Position numbers and translations under genes: made by a program | Part shown: one piece after another, positions 6,994-62,517 of the stretch | Numbering within the stretch: the stretch's first letter is position 1 | How the letters are laid out: each line of letters begins with the position of its first letter | Notes under the pieces: generated by a model | The model's input: the letters and a program-made list of their open reading frames with translations, nothing else | What the model was told of the DNA's origin: nothing | Database searches by the model: none | From: Microbotryum violaceum | Lineage: Eukaryota | Reading direction: 5' to 3' | DNA: 64,000 bases | Assembly: GCA_001244265.2 (NCBI GenBank) | Contig: CDLV01000006.1 | Coordinates: 1,860,001 to 1,924,000, forward strand

Positions 6994-9900
6994 ATGGGCT
7001 TCTGTCAACGATGTGGCGAAGTCACGGTCACCCCTCGATGCAAATGCGGTGGAACTGCTAAAGGTAAGATCAGCGAACCAGTCCGGGACTGAGACTGATG
7101 CGACCGCGACGAACTCGGCGACGATGCGATGTCGATCGCTCGCTCAACATCGCCGAGCATCGACGGGACGGACTGCTGAATCCGTATCCGTCACTAATCA
7201 CTGACAAGGGTCGTCTGCGATCAACAGAGACTTCGACGCAACTCCTTTTCAGAGGAGCGTCGGGGGATAAGTGGAGCCAGAGGTGAGTGACTGATCGTGT
7301 GCTCAAGCTAGGAGTCTGAGCTCGCACCTACCGCCCGTTGTGGCCTGTTGTGGCCTGTTGTGGCCTGATTGCGACGTCATGGACTCATCGTGGCTCGAGC
7401 GGAGGTGGAGGCAGTCGAGCCTGCGCATCATTAGCCTGGACGTAGAGCTGATCCACACAGCCTTTCTTGTGCTTTAGATATGTGGCCAAGGCCACCAGCC
7501 CCTCAGCGGCATCCCTCTTCGCGCCAGCGCCAATCTCGTCGGCGGCGGCGACAACCTCGTCAGCCTCAAAGCTGGGCCCCACCTCGACGAGTTCTCCGAG
7601 TGCCACCCCTCACGGCGGAGCTCACCTTCCAGCATCTACCACCTCCGGTACGCCCGTTCGACCACCGATCAAAAGAAATCCTACTACTTTTGAGAATCAC
7701 GAATTGTCGAGTGTTTTCGGGAGCGTGCTCAGCCCTAAGGATCAGTGGGAGTGCGCCGCGTGCCAACATCGCTTCGTCCAGGTTCGTCTCAACGGGTGCT
7801 TGCGTGGGTGCTCCTGTCTTGGGGTCCTCGGGTCAGCCCAGAACTCATGAGGGGCCCTCTCTAACGCCGTATCGGGTATCATGTTGTGTTGTCCAGGAAG
7901 AGGTCATCTACCCCCACCCCAACGCCAAGGTGGACGCGCAGCTCTCCGAGCTCTACTTTTGCCGCGAATGTTTCGCCGAAAGATTCAGCAAAGGCACTTG
8001 GTTCGTTCTCAATTTTCGAAAAGGATGTGCTGTTGACTTCTTCTTCCACCTGCTGACCCAAAGTCATTATTGTATCTCTATCATAGCAAGAAGTGCAAGT
8101 GTGCGGTCCTGTCAGATGCTCCGTTCATCAGGCATGATGACCGACTATGGCACGAAGTGAGCAACAGAGTTGTCGCTTTCGATCATTGAGGCTGACGAGT
8201 GCACTTTCCTGTAGTCGTGCTACACCTGCTCCTATTGCTCGGTTAGCTTTTCAACTGCCGTGAGAATCCGGTTCGTGCACCGAAACTGACTCAATCGGGT
8301 GCTGCACCGAATTGTCCATCTCAGGATCCGCAAACCGGTCCAGTCATCGACTTCGCAGGAAACCCAAGCTGTGAGGCCTGCTTCGATAGCGAAGCGTACA
8401 AGACGAAAGGTGTTCCACCGTCCCCCCATTTAGCCCAAAAAGGGTTCGACATGGGTCCAGTCAAGGCGAATTTGCGACCTGCGCCGAGCAAATGGGGCGG
8501 CTCGAAAGCGAAACTCAACCTCTCTCCGGCAGTGAAGCCGACAACTCAGACGAGATATGGTCAGGATCACAGCAACACCCCCGCAGGGAATAGGAACCGT
8601 GCTCTGTTGGCGGGAAACGATCGAGCGGTTCCGGGTTGGCGACTTCGGAATGAAAGGGAGAAGAGCCCGATCGTAGCATCTTTGGACGAAATGGGCAACA
8701 CGTTTCGGCGACTGGGGTTGGAGCGGAGCGAATCGCCTCTTGCGTCGTCGAAGCGGACCGATATCGCTGCACAGTCGACACCAGTGTCTTTGCCGGCCTC
8801 TTCAACGTACGGCCGCGACGTGACTGGCACCCCCGCGGTTGGGAACACCACATCGCGCACCGCCCCTGTTTGGAGCCAGGTGCCGCCCATGACCAAATCT
8901 ATCCAAGCGAAGGAGGGATCCTCGGCAACAGAATTGACACATTGTTCGGTGTGCGATCTCGTACTCGGATATGGGGAGTTTGTACAGCTTCAAGGAAAAG
9001 CTAGTGTCATGCACAAAGCGTGCTTCCTCTGCGGTGGGTGTCGCAAACCTCTCGATCAGGGAAGACATGTTGAGGCGGAGGGTCATATTTGGCATCGAGA
9101 CGTAAGAAGCGCAGGGAGGATCCCACATGCGTTCTTCGCCGTGAAATGCTGAACCGTATTGCAACCCGACAGTGCGCTCCACCTCCCAAAATGTTTCGAA
9201 CCATCGAAACCTCTCTCGCCGAACCGCAGCTAGGCCAGCCGCGCAAGCCATACGTACCCACAAGCCCCGTACAGGACCCGTGCTGCCGAAGTTGTCGGCT
9301 CGTACTCGGCCTTGGATACAACATCAGCACGTCGGGGGGTACCGTGAACTACTGTGCTCAATGCTTCAAGTGCGCAGCATGCTCGCAACCCTTTGGAAGG
9401 GTCCCTAGTCATCGATCGTTCATTGAAGTAGCAGGCGTGCCGTACCATACCAGAGTGCGTCGAATAATCCGTCTCTCGTCTTATGTGTGCTTACATCTGC
9501 TACTACTCTTTCCTTCTAGTGCGCGCCTCCTCCATCCCCCCAAAGGGCCGAAGAGAACCCATCGACCCCTCTTCGAGCCTCGACATCACGGGCTCCATCC
9601 TCGTTACCTCTGGCGCCTTCGCAAACCAAGATCTTCCACACTCCACCCAGCATCAATTCGGCAGAGAAACCTAGATCCATCTTTGCGACGCGCGAGCGCC
9701 CTCCCGAAAACCTCGGTGGACTGCTCGTGTGTGCGGGCTGCAGTGTTCGAGCGACGGAGCGCGAGACCAAGTCGGGGCCTTTGGGTAAGAGATATCACCC
9801 ACGCTGTCTCAAGTGTGGATTGTGCAGTCGTACGGTAGACTCGGAGAGTCGGATCGGTGCGAATGGAGAGCTACGGTGCGAAAGTTGTAGGGTAAGTCAG

Positions 9901-49980: not shown

Positions 49981-51079
49981 CGGCTCGTGGTGAGTCTGGT
50001 TGCGCTGCATCAGGTGACCGCGACCGTGCAATCGATCAGTCGCCGCTATTATGGTGGTAAATGGGCGTTCGAGCTCGTCGAGGGCAATGGACGAAAAGGT
50101 GGAGGAAATTAGATGTGACGCTTGATAGGTGGGATGTCCAAGACTAGAATCCAGGGCTGCTGACGTTGCGGTGTTACTTGATGCGGCTTCCGGACGAATA
50201 GGCGAGATAAATTACAGGCGGGTCACTTTACAGTCCTCACAAGCTGCGCCCTCGGCACGTCCGGGCGCCATTATTACGTAATCGCTACAACTAATCAGTA
50301 CTTTTTGCCATAGTCCACTCGAGTCTCCCGACGATCTTAGCTAGGCGATCTTCAGTCAAGGCTCCCAGGGATCACGGCGGCACGAGCTAGACATCATGAT
50401 GCTATCGTCCCTGATCTAGAATTTTGGTCTCATTCGAGTAGCTCAATGCGTTAGAACTCTCAGTTAACTAATGCAATGCCACCGCGAATATTAGTGACCT
50501 GATTCGAAGCAGTTCAATACGTTAGAACGCTCGAATCAGAAGGAAGCTAAGAGAAAGCCCGCGCGCGCGCTCGCGCTCAGGGAGCCTGCAGTGTATTCCT
50601 CAAGTGTCAACTCAAGACCTGACGCTTTAACCCTCTGTCGCTAGATCTAACAATGTTCACGTCTCTTCGCAGCGTGCGGGACAGCGTCATGCTCCGTCGG
50701 ACCGACAAGCAATATCGGTCGCTTGGAGCAGTCTTGTCCGAACTCCGCAGACTCGGAGGAGCTTCGTCGACTTGACTGGGGACTTCCAAACGCATGCTCA
50801 TACGATTCAGATAATAGTCAAGCCCCTGACGCGGAACGAGAATGGGAGGGTAAGCTTGTTGTTTCAAACAAGATCTAGTGGCCAAAGGCCCGTCGCCAGG
50901 TAGACTCCTAACTTTGCCCTAAAAGCCGACACCAAGTTAGAGGGTGTAACGGAAAGTGGATGATCCTTCGACTTCGGTCCCATTGCGGTCGGCGGCTGCA
51001 TTAGCACGGCCGAAGGCGATTGTCATACCGACGAGCAACACAAATAAGAACCCTTCCTGCCCAGTGACCTGGGGAAGGA

Positions 51080-51420
51080 CCCAGTTCATTACATTGTCTT
51101 CTGTATGTTCTGTTGAAAACTTTTCTAAAAATCTAAGTAAAGAATTGTCTAGTTTCTTAAGTGTAGTTTCAGGTTCCTTTTTTTTGCCCTTTTTTTTGTC
51201 TAGACAAAAAAGACAAAACGTAAAAAAAAGCTGGGCGCTTCATAAATGTCAGGAGGTTAAGGTGTATTCTAATGGTTCTACAAAAGTGGAATATCAAGGT
51301 CAAATCCTTAAGCGCCCTGGACAAAAAAGACAAAAGGAGTAAATTTTATGTTCACTTTTACTAAAATACATTTAAAAAGGATTAACCAGTTAATTTGTAT
51401 TTTCTAGGGCTTGTTTACTT
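51080..51420. mobile_element. AT-rich, CpG-depleted probable transposon-end relic
   Basis: Sharp drop in GC, only about 3 CpG, A/T tracts, direct repeat GACAAAAAAGACAAAA, 20-bp palindrome at 51192-51211, and patchy resemblance to the subterminal region of the element at 60690-60810. Confidence 0.4.
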
Positions 51421-52473
51421 GCATGAGAATTGCCCCTTGGCAGCCCATCGCGGCACTCAGATCTGATGGCAGCGCGTAGTTTTGAGTGGGCGCGGGGCGA
51501 GCTCGTCTGCCGGATCACGTGACTCTGGCCGTGCATGAGCTTGACGTCAGACGCTGAACCCTCCGCGAACAGTGCAACACTCAGTGCAGTGGTTGGCTAA
51601 CAGCTGAGCGTTGTACGCGGAGGCGATCTACTAAAGAAGTATACAGTACCCATGACCATCGGTAATACTAATCTAGATGCAGTGAGAGCGTGTAAGCAGG
51701 ACGCAGGACCGCAGATGTGACATCGCTTGAGGACATCGCACCGACAAAAGGTACTATATTTGACCGAACCAATTTGTCCCTGCGAAACACTGGGCGATCG
51801 ACCTCAAGACATGGCTACATCGTAAGTGCCTGTTTATCTACATACTGACAATTTTGAGAGGCTGAAGGGAGCTGGTCCACTGGATTGGTCCGAGCTGGCT
51901 ACCGTGAGCTTGGGAGACGAAAGCCTATCGTATGAGTCTTGGACGGATCGTGAGGCCAACTCCAAAATCACCGACCTGCGAGCGTCGCGCGCGAGCGCCG
52001 CAAGCTTGGAGATGAACTGGCGATTGGCGCGATCGCCGGGCGAAGCGAAGAAAAGGGGGTGCGCATCTCCGACCGATCTCGCGGCAAAGTCCGCGCGGGC
52101 CACTGCAGGGCCTCCGCAGCCGGTCGCACGATTTGTCAAGGTACGACCAGGTATTTTCTCAACCGCACATCTCTTCTTCTCACGATCTTGAAGTCGAAAC
52201 CACAACTGAACCACGAGCGCCCGAGGTTAACTACATCTAGTCGGGATAGACTTCAACCAATTTCAGCTGTAGAAACCGAGGGCGCTAAGCGCCGGCGACG
52301 CCCCTTGAGGTGCATGACGCGTTTCGCGGGCCACGAGCTCAGCGGATCATCCACAAACTGACCCACTGTCTCACACCTCGTACCTCTTGTGTTTCCATCC
52401 CTTCCTTCTTGTGGATTAATCCCTCATGTTCGAGTAGCCAACTTCGTCTACTCAACAACATCCTAGTTCGACC

Positions 52474-53808
52474 ATGTATGGCTTGACCCCGCCGGCTTCT
52501 GCGGCCGGAGCGTGGGCCCCGTCAGTGACCGAAACATGGGACACGACCCGCAATGACCAGCATCACGAGCCAGCCCACTACGTGCCTCACCTCGACAGCA
52601 CCATGTATCAATCCGAATGGGAGCCGCACCATGGGCATTATGAAACCTATTCGGCACCCCAACATTCTCACCCTCACCATCAGCACCACCTTTCCGTCGG
52701 CCCTTTCGCCGAAGCTCCGGCCGGACCCCCTGTGACGGCACCAATAGCTCGAGCGTCATCAGCTGGCGTCGATCACCACCGTTCGACCTCTTCGCCGTCG
52801 CACTTTTACGATCGCCATGACGTTAGTCGCATGTCTTCTACCCCGATGATATCTCACCCTTCCGATCCCCCTTGGTCGGACCCTTCGCCATTGCAAGATC
52901 CTCATCTGGCCGCCGCTCGTCATTCTCCCGCTCTCGTTTCGGCCCACCCTTCGGGCGCGCCGTACGCCACTTCGAGCTCGACGAGCTACCGCACCGCGGC
53001 CATGTCGCACCCGCCTCCGCGTCCCACTGCCTCCGCTCTGGCATCAAACCCTCCCAATCACGTGCGCGTCGGTAGCAATGCATCCACGAGTGCGGTGTCC
53101 TATGGCAGTGAACGCCTTTCGTCGATCAGCCCTCCTGTCAGAGGTAGCGACGGCACCCTGAGCCCGCCAACGACGGTCCGATCTGACTCGAGCTCTGACG
53201 AAGCCCTCAAACAAGACAAGACTCCGGCTTCGTCTTTCTTCGACTTAAGTCCGTCGAGTTTGTTGGCGATGGCCAAGAATCCCACGGTGAACGCTACTGC
53301 GCCGGGAAGGGGAAGTTCGACCCTCGTCGCTGCGGAATCCCCTAAGCGCTCTTACCCGGGCGCCAAACGAGGCCGCAAGCCCAAACCTCCGCCTTCGTCC
53401 GAGGAAGCCAAACGAAACCGCGAGATCTGCCTCAAAAAGAATCGGATCGCTGCTCTGCAGTCGCGACGACGGAAGAAGATTAAAAACGGACAACTCGAAA
53501 ACCGTACGTTGCTAGGCCAACGATTCTTCTGCTCGCCCGAGACGTACCTGCTGATCGGTTGATCTGTCCTGATCAACCCATTAGAAGCAAACGAGCTCAT
53601 GTTGCGCAACAAGTCTCTGCAAATCTTTGCGCGGGATCTTCACGTCGAATTGATGCAATTGCGCGCGCTCCTGGCTCGACTGCCCGGCGGCTTTCCCGAC
53701 GTCAACGCCTATCTCGATCGCGAGGCTCAGGGCGGCGGTATTCCCACCATCATGAGGATTGCGGGACCCACGCTGGAGCGTGACTATACACCACCATCAG
53801 ATATCTGA
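52474..53808 (+). CDS. bZIP transcription factor (ATF/CREB-like)
   Basis: Basic region KRNREICLKKNRIAALQSRRRKK; after one intron a leucine zipper QLENQANELMLRNKSLQIFARDLHVELMQLRALL. Confidence 0.88.
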
Positions 53809-54147
53809 TCGAGTCGGCTTCCTCCTCCTTCAACTGCGGTACACCACCGCCCTGGTGCCCCAGGGCTTGAGGGTCCATCATCGACCTCACCCAAATCCCT
53901 CTCGAAACGCCAATCATACTGTAGCATCTAGTCGTTTTATCGACTGCATAATTCGCATTGTACTCACTGTTGCCCTGTCCATTTTCGGAGACTTCCCTCG
54001 CATCCTCAGACTCCATTATACATAGCTGCTTCTTTCCCTATACCTCGTTTACATACATTGTTGTTTTTTTCAAGTCGCCCATTACTGTCAACGCTTTGGG
54101 CCTGTTGCAAATCTAATTACATAGCAACATTTCAGTGGTGTGTTGTT

Positions 54148-54180
<33 letters not shown>

Positions 54181-55289
54181 AGCAGTCGCTTGCAAGCTGT
54201 TCAGAGGTTGAGCATAATAGCATGATACCACGACTGGGCGGGCCGTGTAACCCACAGGCGCCGCGATGGCCTCGATAGGACCCCCGAAAGCCCAGCCGGA
54301 GGCGCATTTTTTTTTGTTGACATTTTGAGGACCCAAAATCCTGAAAATCGTCGAGGCGCATTGCATAAAATTGACTTTTTGGGACGAAACACACGTTTCG
54401 CCCCCGAGGCGCATGCCCAGATTTTGACATTTTCCCGTGAGTCGGCCCAATCTTGGCCTACCCTGAGCAGCCTACGGCATGGCTTTGGGCCCGTTTGCCT
54501 TCGCTTCGAAACGCGCTTCGCGATGCTCGCGCTTGAACAAGTCACTAGCCATTTTCGCTAATCACTTTAGTTCAGTGGCTGTTAGAGAATATTAGGGATT
54601 AGGTACCCCTATCAAGTAAAATAAAAATGACGGGGCCCCTGAGGTTCCGTTCCGCTTCACTTCGTTCTGACACTGGAGCATAGCACGACGAAATGATTCC
54701 ATGCTTTGTTTCTCGACGAAGATCAGGACTACTATTTGCACGACGATGACTTTGATCGATTATCGCCGCTCACCAACATGACGGTTGCCGAGCTCCTCGC
54801 CTTCGATGTCGCTCCCGCCGACGCGTCTCTTCACATCGAGTTGTCCAAAAACAAGCCCACCCAGTATTCAAACTTACCCTACCCGACTCTTCAGACCAGA
54901 GACGCGTTTCTTGCTACCGATGCTCTGATCAATGCACGCAAGCCAGGATATCGATCTTTGGCCGTCGGGTCGACGTGTTTGCCGCTCGGCGCCGATCGGC
55001 TATGGTCAGAGTACGAGCGAGCAAAAGACGTTCAAAGCTGGGCGCTGCGAGCTCAACGATGGATGGACAAAATTATCGTTATCAACGAAATTGACCGCAA
55101 CCGTATCGCTGTCGCACGTCGCATACTGAACGGATTGCGATGGCAAGAGCACTAGACGGGCTTCTACCATTGCCTCTTCTTGCAAGTGGAACGAGTTTGG
55201 TTTATCTCCTGAGATTCTTAAGTCAGTACACCAATCCTTCAGCTGGCCACTCGTATTCATCTCGTATCTGAGGCAACTTGCTTATTCGC

Positions 55290-55880
55290 GTCTCTACCCA
55301 GGTCATGATTGGCTCGGTGAAGCCGCGGTGAACTTGTCAATTGAAAGCGTCCTTCGAGCTGGACGAGTGCAGAATCCCGATTTCGAAACATCGTGTGGAC
55401 TTATACCCTCCATCGTCATCTCCTTGGTAATGGCTCGCCCTCCCGACTCGGATCCTCATTCGATCTTCAAAGCCTGTTTTTTCGGCCCGCCAAACCAGTA
55501 TCGGAATCTCATCGAGCTAAGCGATTGCATGCGCAACACGCCGACCTCAAAGTCAATCTGGTTTCTACCCCTCTGCTCCGACAGCCATTGGGTCCTGGCC
55601 CGCATCAACATGCACAAGCGGACGTGGTCTGTGATCAACTCACTCTCCGCCACTCCGATCACCGCGGCTACTCGGACGGCCGTCCTTACGCTGTTCAAAT
55701 TTCTGAAGCTGGACATCAAAAATGAGTTCCCTCATACTCCTAAGGCGGAACAACAGGAAGACAGCTACTCGTGCGGGCCGGCTACGATCAATGCAGTGGA
55801 GACGGAGGTGCTCGGGATTGGGTCATTCAACGCAGCGCGCGCTCACATGTCACGGCTCCGTCAATTCTGTCGTTTATCCT
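55290..55880 (+). CDS. Ulp1/SENP-like (peptidase C48) cysteine protease domain inside the transposon
   Basis: RLYPGHDWLGEAAVN (WLxDxxIN-like), FLPLCSDSHWVLARI (His), VINSL (Asn at the usual Asp position), QQEDSYSCG (oxyanion Gln and catalytic Cys). Confidence 0.8.
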
Positions 55881-56019
55881 CTCTGGTTGGTGCTGTCGAG
55901 GATCCCAAAGAAATCGAATCCATCGTTGCCACGGGCGCAAAATCAAAGGCAAAGTCTGGGAGGGGATCCGCTGCCGGAACACTGAGCAGCAAGAGCACGT
56001 CGGCAGAGTCCGGCATGGC

Positions 56020-59000
56020 AGCGACAATCAAGCCAACAAATCAACGAGTGCATCATCCTCAAAGAACCCGCCAACTTCTCGACTCCAAACGACCTTCACC
56101 AAAGCATCGAAGCCGACGAAAGCTCGAGAGCTCACACCCGAGGAGCATACGACGTGGGCTCGCGACCATCCGCCTCTTTTCAGGAGGCTTGCTGAAAAAG
56201 TCAAAGATCTTTGCCCGGGATCGAATGTCGACGTCAACAATCCAAAATACGTGCGGTGTGGACGATGTTATGTCTTGGTGCCAATGGCGGCCTTGCTGTG
56301 CAAGGCACGATTTGAATTACATCTCGGCAATAAGAAGTGTGTCAACCTCCAACCCATCAGCAATTTCTTCAGACCTATCGCCTCTGGCTCAACTGCTCCC
56401 AGCCCCTCGCTAGGACCGTGCCCCGGCCTTACGTCTGAAACGGCGATACATTATCTTTCATCAACTGCGGCGCAGGGTGGCGGGGCCCCTCCTCGACGGA
56501 CGCTTTGTTTGCGCCTCTATCCCAAAATTGGTAAACGACCAATGACGGAGTTCGAGAGGAAGGAGGTGGACAAATTGGAAGCAAATGAATGGAAGTGGCG
56601 CAACGATCATCGAGCACCGCGCATCATCAGTGTGAATTGTCGCAAGTATAGCGCTCGAGATTCGATCAACAAGGACGGACCAAGCTTACCGTGTGAAGAA
56701 TGCGCGAAGCTTCCTAAGAATTCATCCTGTCGAGCAGCTCTTCGACGTCAATATGCTGCTGGCGCAACTCGCAAATACACCAACAAGAAATATGTCGCGG
56801 GCGATACACTTCTCTCGGCCATCTACCGGCGACATCATGGACTAGAAGAGATCCTGGATGACAACAGTCAAGGGAACGTGTATCTACGATTCGCGCAAGG
56901 TGTGACCTCAGGAGAATTTGACGGAGCGAACATCTTGGAGGGATTGGTGAAAGCGGCTACGGTCAAGCACGATCGGATGGTCAAGGGCAAATCAATGCGA
57001 GGCTTTGTGCGGTCCGAAGCGCTGCGTAACTTCGAGCAAGCCATGGCGCTGGCGTCTCCGATGGCTCTGAGAGTACTGCAGGCTACAATCGGCGCATCCA
57101 CAAGCCGAAAACTGCAGTGAGTACCGTCATTCTTTCGTTCTTCCAATTCAATCTCATACTGAATGATCGAGGTGCTTGCAGAATGGACCGAGCGACATCA
57201 GGCAGGATGCGCCTCGGCCTCGACAAGTCCAACATGGATCGTGTCTGCGCCAAACTCGAAGCAGACGACCTAACGTTCAATTTACACGTAGACGACACGA
57301 AGTGTCGATCCAGGATGCGAACCACTCCATACTACTCAGAAGACCTCAGTTTAGAGCGCGAACTACGTACGAAGGGCATATTCCGCCACGAGCTGATCGG
57401 ATCAATTGGTCCGCCACGCATCTACGAAACTCCGGGTGAACTCCCTGATATGTTCAGCGGACCTGACCCCCCGGTTGCTGGAACCAAAGTGAGTGACAAT
57501 GATTCTTTTAAGTTTGTACTTCATTTCCACGAGGCTTTAACATGTGTCGCCTCTTCATTCAGATCCGAGCTTACATGATAGCACCGAACGATGTTGGCTC
57601 CCCAGCACAGGTGTTTGCCGCTTTTGTGATCGGCGAAACTACGAACGCGGAGGACGCGACCGAGACAGTTACATTCAGTGATACAAGAGTTAATAAAACG
57701 TTGCGTCGCACACCTTCTGGTATCCATCTCCGCAGATGGTGCGGCAAGCGAAGGTGTGCTGCAATGTAATGTTGCCGTCCTTCTGCGCGATCAGGGTGGC
57801 GCTGTTGCTCAAACCGGATCAAGGAACGCGTCATCATACACCCTCCCCTCCCCAGATCTGGACGGAGTGTTTCCTGAGATCATTATATCGACCGTCAACG
57901 TCGCGGGAACGCCGATAGTCTTCTGTCGGGACGAAATACACCTGGCCAAATGTCTGAGGAACGCTATCGACTCTGGAGCAAGATTGCTGTTCGGCGGTCT
58001 CGGATGCATTGCCTACCAGGATATGCTCACCATCCTGGGCGGACTGGAGTCGCGTCGTACTCTGTCTCGTCGTGATGTGGTCGGGCGTGATCGTCAAGAC
58101 GACAATGCAACACATCGGGCATTCTCCAAGGCGACGCTCGAACTCGTAACCGAACTCGCTGAAGACAAAAAACTCGACCCCGATGCGGTCGTATATCTCT
58201 TCCTATGTGGCGAGTTACACGATGCCATCCAGAACCGGTCGCTTCAGCCCCTTGAACGTATCAGGATGTTGCTCGTTGTCAGATATACGTTCGAGGCGTG
58301 GTATGACTTTGTCCGAAGTCGCCCCGGATCTAGCTCTCACTCGTTCCTCGCCAAAGAAACGCTTGATGGGGTCAGGAAGATGGTTGACTCAACGATTGCT
58401 CTCGTCCGCAACTACCGAGATTTTTGGCCAAAGGGATCGTTCATTCCCTGGCGGCATGGCACAGAAATGGTGGAGCACTTCTTCGGGGGTATACGCCAGA
58501 TTGTAAAGGAGTTCGATGCTCTAGAGTTCTTGCAGGTGCGTTCTTCATGAATCAATCTAATCTATACAGTAGTTAACCCGGCTAGAATCCGACAGGCAAC
58601 TGGCAAAGTCACTGCACTCTTGGAGCTCATGAGGAAGTTTAAGACCGAGGCGGCGGGATCACGTCAAGGCTACCATCATACCTACAACGACCTCGACGAT
58701 CTTGACCTTGTTGCGATGCGAACGTACCCCAGTGATGGCGACATCTCTCTCACCAGTTTTGCAGCGGCAAATACTGCGCGTGAACTGCTTTCAGGTTTAC
58801 GCATGTGGGAGCCTGTGCAACGCATCGCGTCCAACAGACGCAACCAAGGTCCGCAACCTGACATATTCGTCGAGGACGTACTCGCCCGTGGCACAACAGT
58901 TCAAGGTATGGAGTTGCGAACGACTTGGTCTATAAGTGATGCGTATCTGACACGGCATACCATGCCCACTTGAAGTAGATCTTGACGACCATCATCCTAC

Positions 59001-60576
59001 CAAGGAAGATCAAGGTCTGCTCCGCACCGAATTGCTGGATTCTGCTCTTGATGGCATGCGGCGTAGCACGTGCCAAGGTGTTGTGAAACCGGACCCAAAC
59101 GAGCGAGAAGCTGTCGACCGTGCAATTCGATCGCTTGCAGCTCTGGACTTTGACGTTGAGGCAGCCTTGTGAGTGGACACTTCTCTGTGCCACGTGCGCT
59201 GAAGCGTTCTTCTACCTTTTAATCCGGACCTCATATTGCTCTCCTTTCTCATTGGCCAGATTCGACGTGCAAATCGCTTACGACGAAGCTGATAGACAAG
59301 CTGAGGAACGCTACGTACTCGAGACCATTGAGAAGGCAAACAGCTCATTACGTCCAATCGTGCGTCTACCAAGCTCAACTAGCGTAATTTCGATCTGAGC
59401 TCATGCATCTTCGGTACTATACAGCCTACACACTTGAGACTTCCGCCTCTTGTTGATGCTCGCGATACCAGTTTCTCGCTGAACTGGGCCAGCTTGATTG
59501 CCCATCGAGCTGCTCATGAGTGTAGCCACCTCAGAGCTGTTCTACTCAAAGGGAGGCCAATGTAATTGAGCGACACAAGTCGCGGAGAGGCAGGCTTAAA
59601 GATTAGCAATACAGAGCAAGGACGCAGTGCAGTACATTCACGCGTCTTGAAAGGGTTGGTGCAGTCCATGGGACCATCTCGCTTCGAAGACATTGCGGGC
59701 ACCGCAAGGAGCTTTCGCTGGACTGGAGGTGGCCAGGTGGCCCGAGCGCTCACAACAAACGAGATTCAGAAGAACGCCTATATTGAGGATGGCCGCATTA
59801 AGTGAGTTGTTGCTGAATTTAGGAACGAAGGCAACTGGATCTAATGTTTTGCCGGTCCTATACTTTTAGGAAAAGCTCCCGGAGAGAGACAAGCAGTATG
59901 GAGCGCTAGCACAACGCTGTCCTCATTTTGGATCGCTTGACGGAGCTGTAACCGCTGCCACACCATTGGAGATTAGATCCCTGATCTGCTTTGGCCTCAA
60001 GTGTGGCATGCATTCACTCAGCGGCGATCAAACTGTTTATGGAGAAGAAGCGCTGTCTATCGGAATTGGTACGTTGTTTTGAGTGGCAGTTGAGGAAGTT
60101 CTCGTTTGACACAAGTCTTGTGTCCTACAGTGCGACACATCTACAGCAAAGTGTCAATAAACCACTGCAACCAAGACACGCTTGCCTTGTTGGTTCTACT
60201 CTCAAATGTCGTCGTACAGGAGCTTCGCCTCATCAAGAAAACATGCTATTCCACACACCTCATTGATGGCACTATGCCGTTCCGCATGATTGATGGTCGA
60301 CAGGTCATCGAGTCATTAGGCCCGTCAACGACTACATATCGTTCAACCACGGACCTTACCTCATGTTACCCGGACGAGCGCCTAATCAGCACGAGCGCAC
60401 ATGCCGAGCAAAGGTTTGCCGCCCTTCGGAGCGTGCCCGGCCTGCGAGACGCCGCCGGCAGAACCTCTACAAGCCGCACAAATGCCACCGCGGAAACAAG
60501 GAGCTCAACTTCAGCAAAAAGGAAGTCTGACAACGAAGCAGCGAGCCAGCCAGCAAAGCAAGGAAGGCTTGTTTGA
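56020..60576 (+). pseudogene. P-element/THAP9-like DDE transposase, multi-exon, apparently frameshifted
   Basis: LHVDDTK (57291), ISADGA (57735), RDEIHLAKCLRN (DxxH, 57930), DRQD, TEMVEHFFGGIRQ (E at 58473). Introns include 57116-57181, 57489-57562 and 58536-58594. Frame discontinuity near 57665; basic NLS-like C-terminus KRKSD...KQGRLV. Confidence 0.8.
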
Positions 60577-60982
60577 AGCGTGGAGCCACGCGCAACACCA
60601 GCCGAAGCGACGCGCGCCACAAGCCACTTTCGATAGGCCGCCGCGCGTCCGCAAACGCTCGGAACGCGTTTTCGAGGACTTTTGAGCGATTTTTGGAGCA
60701 TGTAGAACAAATTTTGATAATATTTCCGAGGCGCATGCGAAATTTTGACATTTCGGGGCCAAAATAGGGTAAAAAAACTTTGACAAAAAGGCAAAAAAAG
60801 TGCGTTTTTCCGCATGCACCTCTGGCTGGGCTTTCGGGGGTCCTGCCTCGATCCTGGTGACGTCAGGCCGGAACCAAGCTCCACCTCGTCACTCGCCTTG
60901 ATCTTCCTCCCTCCCCTACCCTCCTGCTCTCCCCACCCGCTTCCTTCAGCTATCCACCACCGACTAGCTTAAACTTTCCAAC

Positions 60983-62517
60983 ATGCAATCCCCCATTCTC
61001 AGAACCCGCCTCACAGCTGCTCAGGTCAGTGCACACCTCGACCATCCTCGTGTCATTTCAGAGCTCAGCTGACGCTGTCGAAACAGAACGTCTCGCGTCG
61101 TACGCTCTCTACCCAGAGGGCGACACAAGTCCCTCCTGTGGCCGGCCAACGGCCCATCATCGTCAACACCGGCCGCCCGGTTGTCGGTGCTCCGCAACCC
61201 CACCCGGTGCCCAACCCTCCGAGGGCGGCGCCCGGTGGAAGCGGACCTAACGTCCCGTGAGCCAACTTGTCGTCGGCGCAAGCCCTCGTTCAGATCCTGC
61301 CATTTAGCATTTTGAATCCCGCCTCTGTCCTCCATAGCGTGATCATCGGCATCGTTGCGGTCGGCGGCGGCCTAATTTGGTATTTCAACAAACCCGCTGA
61401 GGCGAAGCGCGAGATCCGCCAGCTGGAGAACAAGGCCGAAACTGCTTTCGACGCTACGAAGGACAAGACCGAAGCTGCTTTGGAGAAGACGAAGTACAAG
61501 GTCGAGTCCGTTCTCGACTCGGCAAAGGACAAGCTCCCGGCGGATCGCTCGACCCAGAGCCAAGCCAAGGCCGATGAGGTCAAGAGCAAGGCTTCGGGTT
61601 GGTTCAGCAGCGCCGAGTCGGACGCCGAGAAGGCAAAGCGAGAAGCGACGGCGGCCTACCAGGACACCAAGAGCGTCGTCGGGAAAAAAGTTGAGGAGGT
61701 CAAGCAAGAGGGACAATCGTGGCTCTCGTGGGGAGGTGACAAGGCCGCCGAAGCCAAGTCCACAGCCAAAGAACAAGTCAGTCGCTGGTATCGATGTCCA
61801 GCCGTCCGTCACTTTTCGGCGACTGAGCCCTGTTGACCTGGCCTCTTGTAGGTCGCCGATGCCAAGTACTCTGCGAAGCAAAACGGCGAAGGTATCAAAG
61901 CTGAGGTGAATATCTCGCAACGCAGCTTCCGAAGCCCAACTTTGTTGCAGTGTTCTGATCCATTCTCTCCGCTTTGTTCTGTACAACAGAGCAAGTCGTG
62001 GTTCAGCTGGGGATCCGCCAAGGCCGATGATGCCGAGAAAGCGACCAAGTCGGCCGCTCGTGATGCCGAGTACAAGATCCAGTCCGCCGCCGATTCCGCG
62101 AACCGAACTGCACAGGAAGCGGCCAATGCTACCAAACGCGGCTACTACGAAGCCAAAGACTCGGCGGAGCGTGAGCTCGATGCGACGCGCAGGTCTGCTC
62201 GCGACGTTGCACAGTATGCCGAGGATGGCGCGAGGGACACGGCGAACGCCGTGAAGCGAGGTGCCGAGGATGCGGGCCGTGTCGCACAGGAGAAGGCCGA
62301 GGAGGCCAAGCAAGCGGCTTCGTCGTGGTTCTCGTGGGGGTCAAAGAAGGCCGACGAGGCCGCTGATGTCGCTGCCACCAAGGCCAACGAGACTAAGGAC
62401 GCCGCCGTCGGTGCCGGGCAGGGCGTCAAGGACAACGTCAAGGATGGACTCCTGTGGGCCGAGAACAAGGTCGAGTCCGGAGCCCAATGGGCACAGCACG
62501 AGACGAAGAAGCTTTAA
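60983..62517 (+). CDS. LEA-like (hydrophilin) protein with putative mitochondrial presequence and one TM segment
   Basis: Arg/Ser/Thr-rich N-terminus, TM VIIGIVAVGGGLIWYF, Ala/Lys/Glu-rich amphipathic repeats with recurring SWFSWG motifs. Confidence 0.8.

What the first reader, a model, noticed from the sequence alone, without database searches (positions are those of the whole stretch)
54269..60852. Complete P-element-like DNA transposon with intact ends in a basidiomycete yeast-like genome
Seen: 31-bp TIRs (29/31), a perfect 8-bp TSD (GCCTCGAT) and a spliced ORF with D..D..DxxH..E motifs (VDDTK / SADGA / DEIHLAKCLRN / TEMVEHFFGGIRQ). Established: Drosophila P elements have 31-bp TIRs and 8-bp TSDs, and their transposase has the motifs DxxHLxKxxRN and ENFFGxxR. 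Atypical here: the TIRs begin AGG rather than CA, no THAP domain is visible, and Cys-rich modules (CGRC..H..C, PCPGL, VNC..PCEEC) occupy the N-terminal part. Inference: a divergent, possibly undescribed fungal P-like family, defined here with both ends.
Basis: partly seen in the sequence, partly recalled or inferred. Interest (0 to 1): 0.85.

Follow-up and report, generated by a model that had tools for sequence, protein, structure and literature searches.

The report
Broken fungal P-like transposon with protease
This is a full-length but mutationally broken copy of a cut-and-paste DNA transposon from an anther-smut fungus, belonging to a large, apparently undescribed basidiomycete branch of the P-element group whose giant transposase carries a SUMO-protease-like domain.

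Summary
The ends are real: 31-nt inverted repeats (29/31) at 54277-54307 and 60814-60844, flanked by a perfect 8-bp duplication, GCCTCGAT. The element holds one 11-exon gene on the + strand. It encodes about 1,790 residues: a Ulp1/C48 protease domain, Cys-rich modules, a helix-turn-helix, and an RNase H core with an insertion domain.

An AlphaFold model of a 63%-identical Microbotryum paralog matches the Drosophila P transposase far better than any other transposase (Foldseek E 9.5e-13; VIA Z 25.9; next Transib 11.4, Hermes 9.8). Protein-language features of the window's own core point to P-type GTP-binding insertion domains. Sequence profiles barely see the link.

The family is large: 576 clusters at 50% identity. 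Metagenome relatives share the 5'-AGGACCC terminus. Five of 13 have perfect 8-bp duplications, and two near-identical copies sit at different sites.

The window's copy is not coding-intact. Against the majority copies and close proteins it has four frameshifts and one stop codon.

No description of a P-like transposase with Ulp1 turned up in the papers searched. Repbase could not be checked.

The parts
54269..54276 (.). Left target-site duplication, GCCTCGAT
   Evidence: Read directly. Identical to 60845-60852.
54277..54307 (+). Left terminal inverted repeat, beginning 5'-AGGACCCCC
   Evidence: (I1, 31 nt, 29/31). Seven contigs diverge exactly at 54277 in run X10. The same AGGACCC terminus is found in 15 metagenome elements.
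54299..54434 (+). Three subterminal direct repeats of the form GAGGCGCAT...TTGAC(A/T)TTTT, spaced 53-54 bp. Candidate transposase-binding sites (inferred).
   Evidence: family D1. Related GAGGTGCAT and TGTCAA motifs sit near the right end. The 9-mer alone is not enriched in the window (24 matches against 20 expected).
54479..60579 (+). Transposase pseudogene with 11 exons: 54479-54580, 54684-55110, 55187-57116, 57182-57488, 57563-58535, 58596-58905, 58979-59168, 59260-59359, 59425-59801, 59870-60068, 60131-60579. All 10 introns are GT-AG, 60-103 nt.
   Evidence: Read-through gives about 1,786 codons, 86.6-89.6% identical to four Microbotryum silenes-dioicae proteins. The first exon and the 3' end rest on automatic gene models of those proteins only.
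54705..54705 (+). Frameshift 1: the window has one extra base
   Evidence: table 4: left out in all covering depth of X1, X10 and X15, and in part of X3. tblastn frame switch at 54703-54707.
55541..55864 (+). Ulp1/SENP-like C48 cysteine protease core. His (SDSHW), Gln and Cys (QQEDSYSCG) are kept. The catalytic Asp position reads Asn (VINSL).
   Evidence: Pfam PF02902 E 9e-6. 6dg4 Ulp1-like protease E 3.2e-5, with the aligned residues shown. Family profile against yeast Ulp1 1euv E 3.3e-18.
56049..56050 (+). Frameshift 2: the window lacks a C, in the linker between the protease and the zinc modules
   Evidence: table 4 (all depth, 4 of 4 runs). P0003 residues 588/589 abut at 56050 in different frames.
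56155..56900 (+). Cys-rich modules: C-x2-C...H-x5-C (CGRC..H..C), PCPGL, and C...PCEEC. Presumed zinc-binding DNA-recognition region. No THAP signature.
   Evidence: Model pLDDT 86.7. No solved fold matched above Z 4.5.
56900..57116 (+). Helix-turn-helix region preceding the catalytic core
   Evidence: Window model residues 241-321 align to P transposase 128-193 only weakly (Z 4.3, rmsd 3.0, 63 residues). PF12017 hits 7 of 40 relatives.
57182..57488 (+). RNase H N-terminal part with the first catalytic Asp (HVDDTK)
   Evidence: DDTK is conserved in the family consensus.
57665..57665 (+). Frameshift 3: one extra A between the first and second catalytic Asp
   Evidence: DNA read against close proteins ...ATEQLHS.... 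table 4, place 57664.
57666..58535 (+). Second catalytic Asp (SADGA), D-x2-H-x2-K-x2-RN motif, insertion domain with invariant RDV..DRQDDNA, and catalytic Glu (TEMVEHFFGGIR)
   Evidence: invariant columns; nearest named clusters carry PF21788 TNP-like_GBD, score 0.95. The paralog model matches 6pe2 residues 125-564.
59563..59565 (+). Premature stop codon. The window has T where the majority has G (Glu).
   Evidence: table 3: G in all depth of X1, X10 and X15; X3 shares the window's T. P0003 reads ...GRPMELSD.... Internal stop at codon 1493.
59799..59801 (+). Frameshift 4: the window lacks a C just before the donor site (majority GRIQ|gtgagt; window GRIK-stop)
   Evidence: table 4.
60814..60844 (-). 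Right terminal inverted repeat
60845..60852 (.). Right target-site duplication, GCCTCGAT
   Evidence: Contigs at single-copy depth bridge this junction in 4 of 4 runs (records 8, 16, 24, 32).

Best explanation
The 6,568-bp stretch 54277-60844 is a full-length, non-autonomous (pseudogenised) copy of a multicopy cut-and-paste DNA transposon in a Microbotryum genome. It lies between a bZIP-like gene and a hydrophilic-repeat gene.

The family's single gene encodes a giant fusion protein of about 1,700-1,900 aa. Its parts, in order, are a conserved N-terminal region, a Ulp1/SENP-type cysteine protease domain, a low-complexity linker, Cys-rich (C2HC-type) modules, a helix-turn-helix, a DDE RNase H core split by an insertion domain of the P-transposase (GTP-binding domain) type, and a long C-terminal region.

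Mechanism, inferred from the P superfamily: the transposase binds the AGGACCC termini or the subterminal repeats, excises the element by DDE chemistry, and reinserts it with cuts staggered by 8 bp, which gives the 8-bp duplication.

What is shown: the ends, the TSD, the domain content, the P-like fold of a close paralog, the multicopy state, internally deleted derivatives, and recent transposition of relatives elsewhere.

What is inferred: the catalytic mechanism, any GTP dependence, the role of the zinc modules as the DNA-binding part, and the role of the protease. The protease could be a deSUMOylase acting on host chromatin or repair factors, or on the transposase itself.

This copy cannot make the protein, because it carries four frameshifts and one stop. 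At best it could be mobilised in trans through its intact ends.
For: Ends and TSD.

Organism and family:
- The closest proteins are from Microbotryum silenes-dioicae (94-97% identity over the matched half) and M. lychnidis-dioicae. More distant ones are from Agaricomycetes.
- 576 representative clusters reach E<=1e-3, and 355 reach E<=1e-10.

Protease: Pfam C48 in the window and in 12 of 40 relatives. Family profile against Ulp1 1euv E 3.3e-18. Catalytic His, Gln and Cys are aligned.

P-type core:
- The model of P0002 has pLDDT >85 over most of about 40-530.
- Foldseek: 6p5a E 9.5e-13, prob 1.00, TM(target) 0.70. The next hit is Hermes, E 4.7e-4, TM 0.24.
- VIA: 6pe2 Z 25.9, rmsd 3.3, 403 of 456 residues aligned. 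Then Transib 11.4, Tn5 10.3, RAG1 9.9, Hermes 9.8.
- The window's own residues 57666-58535 are nearest to clusters carrying PF21788 TNP-like_GBD (0.95, 204 of 256 features; all ten best named hits share the family or clan).
- PF12017 (P-transposase HTH) hits 7 of 40 relatives. One hit is above Pfam's cut-off (25.2 against 23 bits).

Family-wide anatomy:
- Among 39 metagenome loci of >=5.5 kb, 15 candidate elements have both termini, which begin 5'-AGGAC(C/A)C. Fourteen span 6.2-7.3 kb; one, L074, spans 8.7 kb.
- 13 of them have both flanks. Of these, 5 have perfect 8-bp TSDs and one has 6 of 8.
- L030 and L036 hold the same 6,280-bp element with 9 differences, at different sites and with different TSDs.
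- The protease-to-C-terminus coding region is collinear inside the TIRs.

Multicopy state and derivatives: interior depth is about 10-15 times flank depth in three DNA runs. Internal-deletion joints 54931->59888 and 54339->60623 appear in 3 of 4 runs.

Broken state.
Against: - The fold evidence rests on a predicted model of a paralog, not on the window's protein.
- Sequence-only tests do not link the core to P. Two family profiles found no P transposase in the PDB at E<=10.
- Pfam's P-type RNase H model hits only 1 of 40 and 3 of 57 members, all weakly (best E 0.017). The GBD model hits none.
- No THAP domain was detected (0 of 40; no fold match).
- The termini are AGG, not CA.
- 7 of the 13 metagenome elements with both flanks show no TSD. 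I attribute this to chimeric assembly of repeats, which is untested.
- The tool warns that depth ratios from contigs are not copy numbers.
- The window-specific indels at 56049 and 57664 were not seen in other contigs, apart from a small residual depth in X3. An assembly error at those two places therefore cannot be excluded.
- There is no RNA evidence for any intron.
Confidence: 0.85

Rival explanations
1. It is a Zisupton/KDZ-type element. These fungal transposons also make 8-bp TSDs, and Zisupton is (from recall) associated with a SUMO-protease domain.
For: Zisupton generates 8-bp TSDs and occurs in Pucciniomycotina and Agaricomycetes (passages of PMC12730594). A Ulp1 domain is present here. 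No KDZ structure is in the PDB, so the fold search could not rank it.
Against: No Pfam KDZ or CxC model appears among the families hit by the 40 members at E<=0.1, whereas the P-transposase HTH model hits 7. The protein-language neighbours are all P-type GBD clusters. Z 25.9 to P transposase covers the HTH, RNase H and insertion domain together.
Confidence: 0.05
2. It is a divergent hAT element, given the 8-bp TSD, short TIRs and a BED-like C2HC finger.
For: 8-bp TSD. The first Cys module has a C-x2-C...H...C spacing reminiscent of BED fingers (the resemblance is recalled, not tested). Hermes appears among the fold matches.
Against: Hermes scores E 4.7e-4 with TM 0.24, and Z 9.8 at rmsd 7.4. 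P transposase scores E 9.5e-13 with TM 0.70, and Z 25.9 at rmsd 3.3. No hAT dimerisation or BED Pfam model hits any of 40 members.
Confidence: 0.03
3. The window's copy is in fact intact and autonomous, and the apparent frameshifts are assembly errors or real programmed events.
For: Read-through restores one frame of about 1,786 codons. The window-specific states at 56049 and 57664 were not found in other contigs, apart from a small residual depth in X3. Both TIRs and the TSD are intact.
Against: There are five independent defects, accompanied by about 1.5% substitutions against the majority contigs (52 of 3,410; 78 of 4,957). The window's states at 54705, 59799 and 59563 are shared by part or all of the depth in other runs, so they are real alleles. 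The single-copy flanks match the runs perfectly (0 differences over 242-438 nt), which argues for good assembly quality.
Confidence: 0.05
4. It is a domesticated host gene (Ulp1-like protease fused to a transposase-derived domain), not a mobile element.
For: Databases name the relatives 'ubiquitin-like protease family profile domain-containing protein' or 'hypothetical protein'.
Against: TIRs and a TSD are present. Depth is multicopy and deletion derivatives exist. Near-identical copies sit at different sites with different TSDs. This copy is a pseudogene.
Confidence: 0.02

Closest known systems
Drosophila P element transposase and vertebrate THAP9 (P superfamily)
   Same: The predicted fold of the HTH, the RNase H core and the insertion domain matches 6pe2 residues 125-564 (Z 25.9). 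The D, D, E motifs and the D-x2-H-x2-K-x2-RN motif are present. The TSD is 8 bp, TIRs are short, and internally deleted derivatives exist. That P elements also form such derivatives is recalled.
   Different: No THAP domain was detected; Cys-rich C2HC-type modules stand in its place. A Ulp1 protease domain and about 500 further residues precede the transposase, and about 600 residues follow it, which doubles the protein's size. The termini are AGGACCC, not CATG. Identity to the Drosophila protein is only 13-14%, and sequence profiles fail to connect the two. GTP use is unknown.
P-superfamily entries reported from fungi (Repbase: 'only Pucciniales & Allomyces')
   Same: The same superfamily is reported in the same subphylum, Pucciniomycotina (table passage of PMC5751038).
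   Different: That survey counted 17 Repbase entries and found 11 transposase-bearing copies across fungi with Pfam P models ('single occurrences'). This family has 576 clusters at 50% identity and is almost invisible to those models.
Zisupton / KDZ transposons of fungi
   Same: 8-bp TSD (passages of PMC12730594). Basidiomycete hosts. Large multi-domain proteins with Cys clusters. The protease association of Zisupton is recalled only.
   Different: No Pfam KDZ or CxC hit in 40 members. The fold and the language-model neighbours are P-type.
Ulp1-carrying transposases of other superfamilies (Mutator/KI-MULEs, Ginger1)
   Same: A C48 Ulp1 domain fused to, or encoded with, a DDE transposase (passages of PMC2836005).
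   Different: There the partner is a Mutator or a Gypsy-integrase-like transposase, and in Ginger1 the protease is C-terminal. Here the partner is P-like and the protease is N-terminal. In Microbotryum copies the catalytic Asp position is Asn.
hAT elements (Hermes)
   Same: 8-bp TSD, and an RNase H core interrupted by an insertion domain.
   Different: Much weaker structural match (Z 9.8 at rmsd 7.4). No hAT dimerisation domain.

Membership tests
P superfamily (P element / THAP9-like transposases) | RNase H-like DDE core whose fold, with its insertion (GTP-binding) domain, matches P transposase better than any other transposase | tested here: met
   Paralog P0002 (63% identical to the window core): Foldseek 6p5a E 9.5e-13, TM 0.70; VIA 6pe2 Z 25.9, rmsd 3.3, 403 residues; the next family scores Z 11.4. 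The window's own 290 aa are nearest to named clusters carrying PF21788 TNP-like_GBD, score 0.95. This is not a direct model of the window's protein.
P superfamily (P element / THAP9-like transposases) | Significant sequence similarity of the catalytic core to known P transposases (Pfam PF21787/PF21788/PF21789, or the PDB P transposase) | tested here: inconclusive
   PF21787 hits 1 of 40 (E 0.035) and 3 of 57 (best E 0.017). PF21788 and PF21789 hit none. Two family profiles found no P transposase in the PDB at E<=10.
P superfamily (P element / THAP9-like transposases) | P-type helix-turn-helix (PF12017) before the catalytic core | tested here: met
   7 of 40 relatives, best E 1.4e-5. P0018 scores 25.2 bits against a cut-off of 23. 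The paralog model aligns from residue 125 of 6pe2. The window's own model is weak (Z 4.3 to residues 128-193).
P superfamily (P element / THAP9-like transposases) | N-terminal THAP (C2CH) DNA-binding domain. It is typical of known members; I treat it as accessory, not as defining the superfamily. | tested here: not met
   No THAP Pfam hit in the window pieces or in 0 of 40 relatives. The Cys spacing is C-x2-C...H-x3-5-C. The fold search of the window's N-terminal model gave nothing above Z 4.5, which by itself is inconclusive.
P superfamily (P element / THAP9-like transposases) | 8-bp target-site duplication | tested here: met
   Window GCCTCGAT. Among the 13 related metagenome elements with both flanks, 5 have perfect 8-bp TSDs, one has 6 of 8, and 7 have none.
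P superfamily (P element / THAP9-like transposases) | GTP as cofactor; staggered 17-nt cleavage at the ends | not testable with these tools
   Biochemical properties of the Drosophila enzyme (recalled). No residue-level alignment of the GTP site was available.
hAT superfamily | hAT C-terminal dimerisation domain, with a Hermes-like fold as best match | tested here: not met
   No hAT Pfam model among the hits of 40 members. Hermes scores Z 9.8 against 25.9 for P transposase.
KDZ (Kyakuja-Dileera-Zisupton) | KDZ transposase domain and associated CxC clusters (Pfam models) | tested here: not met
   None among the families hit by 40 members at E<=0.1. No solved KDZ structure exists to compare, so a structural relationship remains untested.
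Peptidase C48 (Ulp1/SENP) | Catalytic His, Asp and Cys, with the oxyanion Gln, in the C48 fold | tested here: inconclusive
   The domain is recognised. His, Gln and Cys align with 6dg4 and 1euv. The Asp position is Asn in the window and in both Microbotryum subfamilies, but Asp in Agaricomycete relatives. Activity is unknown.

The most novel reading that the evidence does not exclude
This element is a member of a previously unrecognised clade of the P superfamily that spans Basidiomycota. The clade has conserved AGGACCC termini, 8-bp TSDs and elements of mostly 6.2-6.7 kb. In it, the THAP DNA-binding domain has been replaced by C2HC/Cys-cluster modules, and a Ulp1-type deSUMOylase has been fused to the transposase as a working part of transposition.

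If so, P-type transposons are common rather than nearly absent in fungi. They were missed because standard profiles cannot see them. Repeated, independent capture of Ulp1 by Mutator, Ginger and now P transposases would point to a general need of cut-and-paste transposons to manipulate host SUMO signalling.
Probability: 0.35. Interest if true: 0.7.

Novelty: new variant of a known kind. Interest (0 to 1): 0.55.

Why it matters
A published survey of fungal cut-and-paste transposons lists P elements as 'only Pucciniales & Allomyces', with 11 transposase-bearing copies found using Pfam P models (PMC5751038, passages seen). The family here has hundreds of diverged clusters in Agaricomycetes and Microbotryum. 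Pfam does not recognise its catalytic core, and source databases label its members only as hypothetical or 'ubiquitin-like protease' proteins. So the P superfamily may be much commoner in fungi than annotation suggests.

The family also adds a third transposase superfamily fused to a Ulp1 protease, which sharpens the open question of what deSUMOylation does for transposition.

In practice, defined termini (AGGACCC), the TSD length and the exon structure would let TE annotators of basidiomycete genomes classify a block of currently 'TIR/unknown' repeats. They would also help correct gene models. The four M. silenes-dioicae models seen here skip the invariant DRQDDNA-to-Glu segment by a frame jump.

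The particular copy in this window is a dead one and matters only as the exemplar.

Tried and rejected
- **Whole-genome search of the window's assembly.** No genome is held, so copy census, TSDs of sister copies and MITE counts in the source genome could not be done.
- **Sequence profiles against solved structures.** A full-length family profile and a core-only profile found no transposase at E<=10. Only Ulp1/SENP proteases came up.
- **Pfam on the nine window ORF pieces.** Only C48 was found.
- **Profile search of the 5.8-billion protein set with A3.** It returned only 12 close Microbotryum-type proteins, because candidates were capped at 8,000. No bridge to canonical P or THAP9 proteins came out of it.
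- **Fold searches of the window's N-terminal Cys-rich model.** Foldseek gave no match at E<=0.001. VIA-wide gave a best Z of 4.5, with weak resemblances to C2H2-type fingers of TUT4 and spliceosomal proteins. The zinc modules stay unassigned.
- **RNA evidence.** No RNA holder is listed. The one run guessed as RNA (X15) gave an unspliced, collinear contig, so no intron is confirmed.
- **Empty site.** No contig joined 54276 to 60853 in the four runs laid. The right junction is present in 4 of 4.
- **RIP-like mutation.** Only 3 of the 40 listed differences fit TCG->TTG in the window copy (133 further differences were not listed by the tool). I rejected RIP-like mutation as the cause of decay.
- **The 9-mer GAGGCGCAT.** It is not enriched in the window as a whole (24 matches against 20.1 expected). 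Only its local 53-54 bp spacing at the left end is notable.
- **Earlier notes of this scan.** Three look-ups returned nothing.
- **Supplementary tables of the Microbotryum TE papers.** They may list this family under 'TIR'.

Full report
**1. The observation**

Positions 54277-54307 and 60814-60844 are inverted repeats of 31 nt with 29 matches. The octamer GCCTCGAT abuts both arms on the outside, at 54269-54276 and 60845-60852. The first 21 nt of the terminus occur nowhere else in the 64 kb, and none of 100 shuffles gave a match.

Independent support for the exact boundary comes from public runs. I laid contigs of four runs on 53700-61400. Depth rises about ten-fold between the flanks and the element: X1 77-80 against about 1,000, X10 24-29 against 271, X3 about 4 against about 60. 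In X10, seven contigs with differing outside sequence end exactly at 54277. The tool warns that contig depth is not a copy number.

**2. What is encoded**

It is a Ulp1/C48 protease domain in ORF 55130-56413 (E 9e-6, 26.1 bits against a cut-off of 20.7). Its His, Gln and Cys align with solved Ulp1-like proteases. The catalytic Asp position reads Asn. The same holds in both Microbotryum subfamilies, whereas Agaricomycete relatives keep Asp.

The 306-aa core ORF finds proteins of 1,500-1,900 aa:
- Microbotryum silenes-dioicae, 94-97% identity over the matched half;
- M. lychnidis-dioicae, 63%;
- many Agaricomycetes, 26-41%, several with a precomputed C48 domain.

An exhaustive HMMER search counts 576 representative clusters (50% identity) at E<=1e-3 and 355 at E<=1e-10. 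Eight of ten representatives looked up carry names. All eight are basidiomycete 'hypothetical' or 'ubiquitin-like protease' proteins.

Family alignments show these invariant or near-invariant motifs:
- CDDTK;
- S..DG...E;
- D..H..K..RN;
- RDV..DRQDDNA;
- W.HSTE..EH.FG..R.

**3. Which superfamily**

Sequence profiles are nearly blind.
- A full-length family profile and a core-only profile find no transposase among PDB sequences at E<=10.
- Pfam's P-type RNase H N-terminal model gives weak hits in 1 of 40 and 3 of 57 members. The GBD model gives none.
- The P-transposase HTH model PF12017 does hit 7 of 40, once above its curated cut-off.
- No hAT, MULE, KDZ or THAP model appears.

Structure decides. 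I used an AlphaFold2 model of the 862-aa M. lychnidis-dioicae paralog P0002. It is 63% identical to the window's core, was built on a 61-sequence alignment, and has pLDDT >85 over most of residues 40-530.
- Foldseek matches it to the Drosophila P element transposase at E 9.5e-13 with TM 0.70. The next family is Hermes at E 4.7e-4 with TM 0.24.
- VIA-align gives Z 25.9, rmsd 3.3 Å, with 403 of 456 residues aligned, covering chain residues 125-564. Lower scores are 11.4 for Transib, 10.3 for Tn5, 9.9 for RAG1 and 9.8 for Hermes.

For the window's own sequence (57666-58535), the protein-language search puts it nearest to clusters annotated 'P transposase-like GTP-binding insertion domain'. The score is 0.95 with 204 of 256 shared features, and all ten best named hits fall in the same family or clan.

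I therefore file the transposase in the P superfamily on fold. Sequence-level membership remains unproven.

The N-terminal Cys-rich region of the window models confidently (pLDDT 86.7). It matches no solved fold above Z 4.5. Only its last 80 residues resemble the P transposase HTH region, and weakly (Z 4.3). No THAP domain was detected by any test.

**4. The family's anatomy elsewhere**

One scan of metagenome contigs returned 80 loci encoding relatives. Thirty-nine loci are 5.5 kb or longer.

- Fifteen candidate elements have both termini. The termini begin 5'-AGGAC(C/A)C, as in the window, with TIRs of 21-35 bp or more. Fourteen span 6.2-7.3 kb, and one (L074) spans 8.7 kb.
- Thirteen of them have both flanks. 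Five have perfect 8-bp duplications (AGCTGACC, GTGCCCCT, GGCCAATC, GGGGAAAT, AAGTGAAC), one has 6 of 8, and seven have none. L002 and L003 are near-duplicates.
- I suspect that chimeric assembly across repeat copies explains the seven without a TSD, but I did not test this.
- L030 and L036 carry the same 6,280-bp element, differing at 9 positions. Their flanks are unrelated and their TSDs differ. That is the signature of recent transposition.
- The protease-to-C-terminus coding region is collinear within the TIRs in all eight elements checked.

The conserved terminus is AGGACCC. The 31-bp arm length shared with Drosophila P is a coincidence.

**5. State of the window's copy**

I mapped four near-identical M. 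silenes-dioicae proteins and the more distant P0001 and P0002 onto the window. Reading the junctions gives 11 exons and 10 GT-AG introns of 60-103 nt.

Four frame changes have no intron. They coincide with indels relative to the majority contigs in the runs:

| Place | Window against majority | Where it falls |
|---|---|---|
| 54705 | one base extra | N-terminal exon |
| 56049 | one C missing | linker between protease and zinc modules |
| 57664/5 | one A extra | between the first and second catalytic Asp |
| 59799 | one C missing | just before a donor site |

A T at 59563 makes a stop where the majority has G (Glu).

Two further indels, 4 nt at 58908 and CTGT at 60094, fall in introns and are harmless.

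Reading through the four shifts gives about 1,786 codons with a single internal stop, 86.6-89.6% identical to the four close proteins. Without read-through, the first stop comes at codon 56.

The copy differs from the collapsed majority by about 1.5% substitutions (52 of 3,410; 78 of 4,957). The single-copy flanks are identical to the runs. There is no marked RIP-like bias: 3 of the 40 listed differences fit.

The window's states at 54705, 59799 and 59563 are shared by some depth in other runs, so they are real alleles. Those at 56049 and 57664 could not be confirmed independently.

Contigs at single-copy depth bridge the right junction in all four runs, and no empty site was seen. The insertion is therefore shared among these closely related genomes and is probably old. 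This fits a dead copy with intact ends.

**6. Derivatives and activity in Microbotryum**

- Joints 54931->59888 (with 26 nt of filler) and 54339->60623 occur in three of four runs.
- Joint 54769->60194 occurs in the fourth.
- Terminal bins reach 4-10 times the interior depth in X1.

These observations fit internally deleted, non-autonomous derivatives that share the termini. That such derivatives are known for P and hAT elements is recalled. No run on record as RNA holds the element. The one run guessed as RNA gave an unspliced contig.

**7. Mechanism**

Shown:
- a TIR-bounded element with an 8-bp duplication;
- a gene for a protein with a P-type HTH, DDE and insertion-domain core whose catalytic motifs are conserved family-wide;
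- a fused C48 protease;
- multicopy state;
- new insertions of relatives.

Inferred:
- DDE-catalysed excision, and integration with an 8-bp stagger;
- DNA recognition by the Cys modules or the HTH, either at the AGGACCC termini or at the three left subterminal repeats GAGGCGCAT...TTGAC(A/T)TTTT spaced 53-54 bp (related motifs at the right end);
- possible GTP dependence, as in Drosophila P (recalled; untested);
- a protease role in deSUMOylating host or transposase targets. Passages of PMC2836005 report Ulp1 domains in Mutator and Ginger1 transposases and speculate about such a role.

**8. Comparison with the literature, and novelty**

From PMC5751038 I saw passages and a table row. Repbase P entries from fungi are listed as 'only Pucciniales & Allomyces' (17 entries). 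The survey found 11 transposase-bearing P copies using Pfam P models.

From PMC12730594 I saw passages. Zisupton makes 8-bp TSDs, so the TSD alone does not discriminate. The paper does not mention Ulp1, THAP or the P superfamily.

From two Microbotryum genome and TE papers, PMC4469406 and PMC10502011, I saw passages. TIR elements are lumped without superfamily detail in the main text. Their supplements, which I could not see, may list this family.

Full-text searches found no paper describing a P-like transposase with a Ulp1 domain. The terms combined were P element or P superfamily, Ulp1, THAP, transposase, fungi, Tnp_P_element, Repbase, Basidiomycota, THAP9 and Puccinia. Repbase Reports and Dfam are outside the library, so 'undescribed' is not established.

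My rating is a new variant of a known kind: a P-superfamily clade with a new domain architecture and a wide, overlooked distribution.

**9. Verdict**

- The P-like interpretation is supported by fold, by language-model neighbours, by the HTH profile, and by the TSD rule across the family.
- The copy in the window is a pseudogene.
- Interest is moderate (0.55). The value lies in the family, not in this copy.

Noticed in passing
window 58083-58164 (and P0003, P0004, P0006, P0007): All four M. silenes-dioicae gene models jump from frame 0 to frame 1 at 58082->58165 and back at about 58515->58587. This replaces the family's invariant DRQDDNA-to-catalytic-Glu segment with a low-complexity peptide, although frame 0 is open in the window and conserved in distant relatives. 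It is probably an annotation error. A real alternative splice that makes a truncated protein is not excluded.
   Followed up: partly
window 60845 -> 54276 (run X15, table 5c): One contig at about single-copy depth joins the right end of the element to the left end with 11 other letters between. This could be two copies lying tail-to-head, or a circular excision product.
   Followed up: no
window 55541-55864: The Ulp1 catalytic Asp position is Asn in the window and in both Microbotryum subfamilies (P0003 type and P0009 type), but Asp in Agaricomycete relatives. His, Gln and Cys are kept.
   Followed up: partly
window 54138-54188: A long G/C homopolymer-like tract, about 90 bp outside the left end, reads as poly-Pro or poly-Gly in ORFs. 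The read-laying tool skipped it as a repeat, and listed contigs stop at 54137, so no listed contig bridges the left junction.
   Followed up: no
window 52438-53562 (+) and 61261-62517 (+): The flanking genes are a Ser/Pro-rich protein ending in a bZIP-like basic region upstream, and a protein of repeated charged, LEA-like helices (KDK..AE.. repeats) downstream. The element is intergenic between them.
   Followed up: no
L030 224-6503 and L036 6430-12709: Two metagenome contigs carry the same 6,280-bp family member (9 differences) at unrelated sites, with TSDs GGGGAAAT and AAGTGAAC. This is a candidate recently active, possibly autonomous element.
   Followed up: partly
window 51000-51499: G+C drops to 0.40, against 0.50-0.65 in neighbouring 500-bp windows.
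   Followed up: no
window 54931->59888 and 54339->60623 (table 5): Internal-deletion joints are seen in 3 of 4 runs. The first carries 26 nt of filler sequence. They indicate shorter non-autonomous derivatives elsewhere in these genomes.
   Followed up: partly
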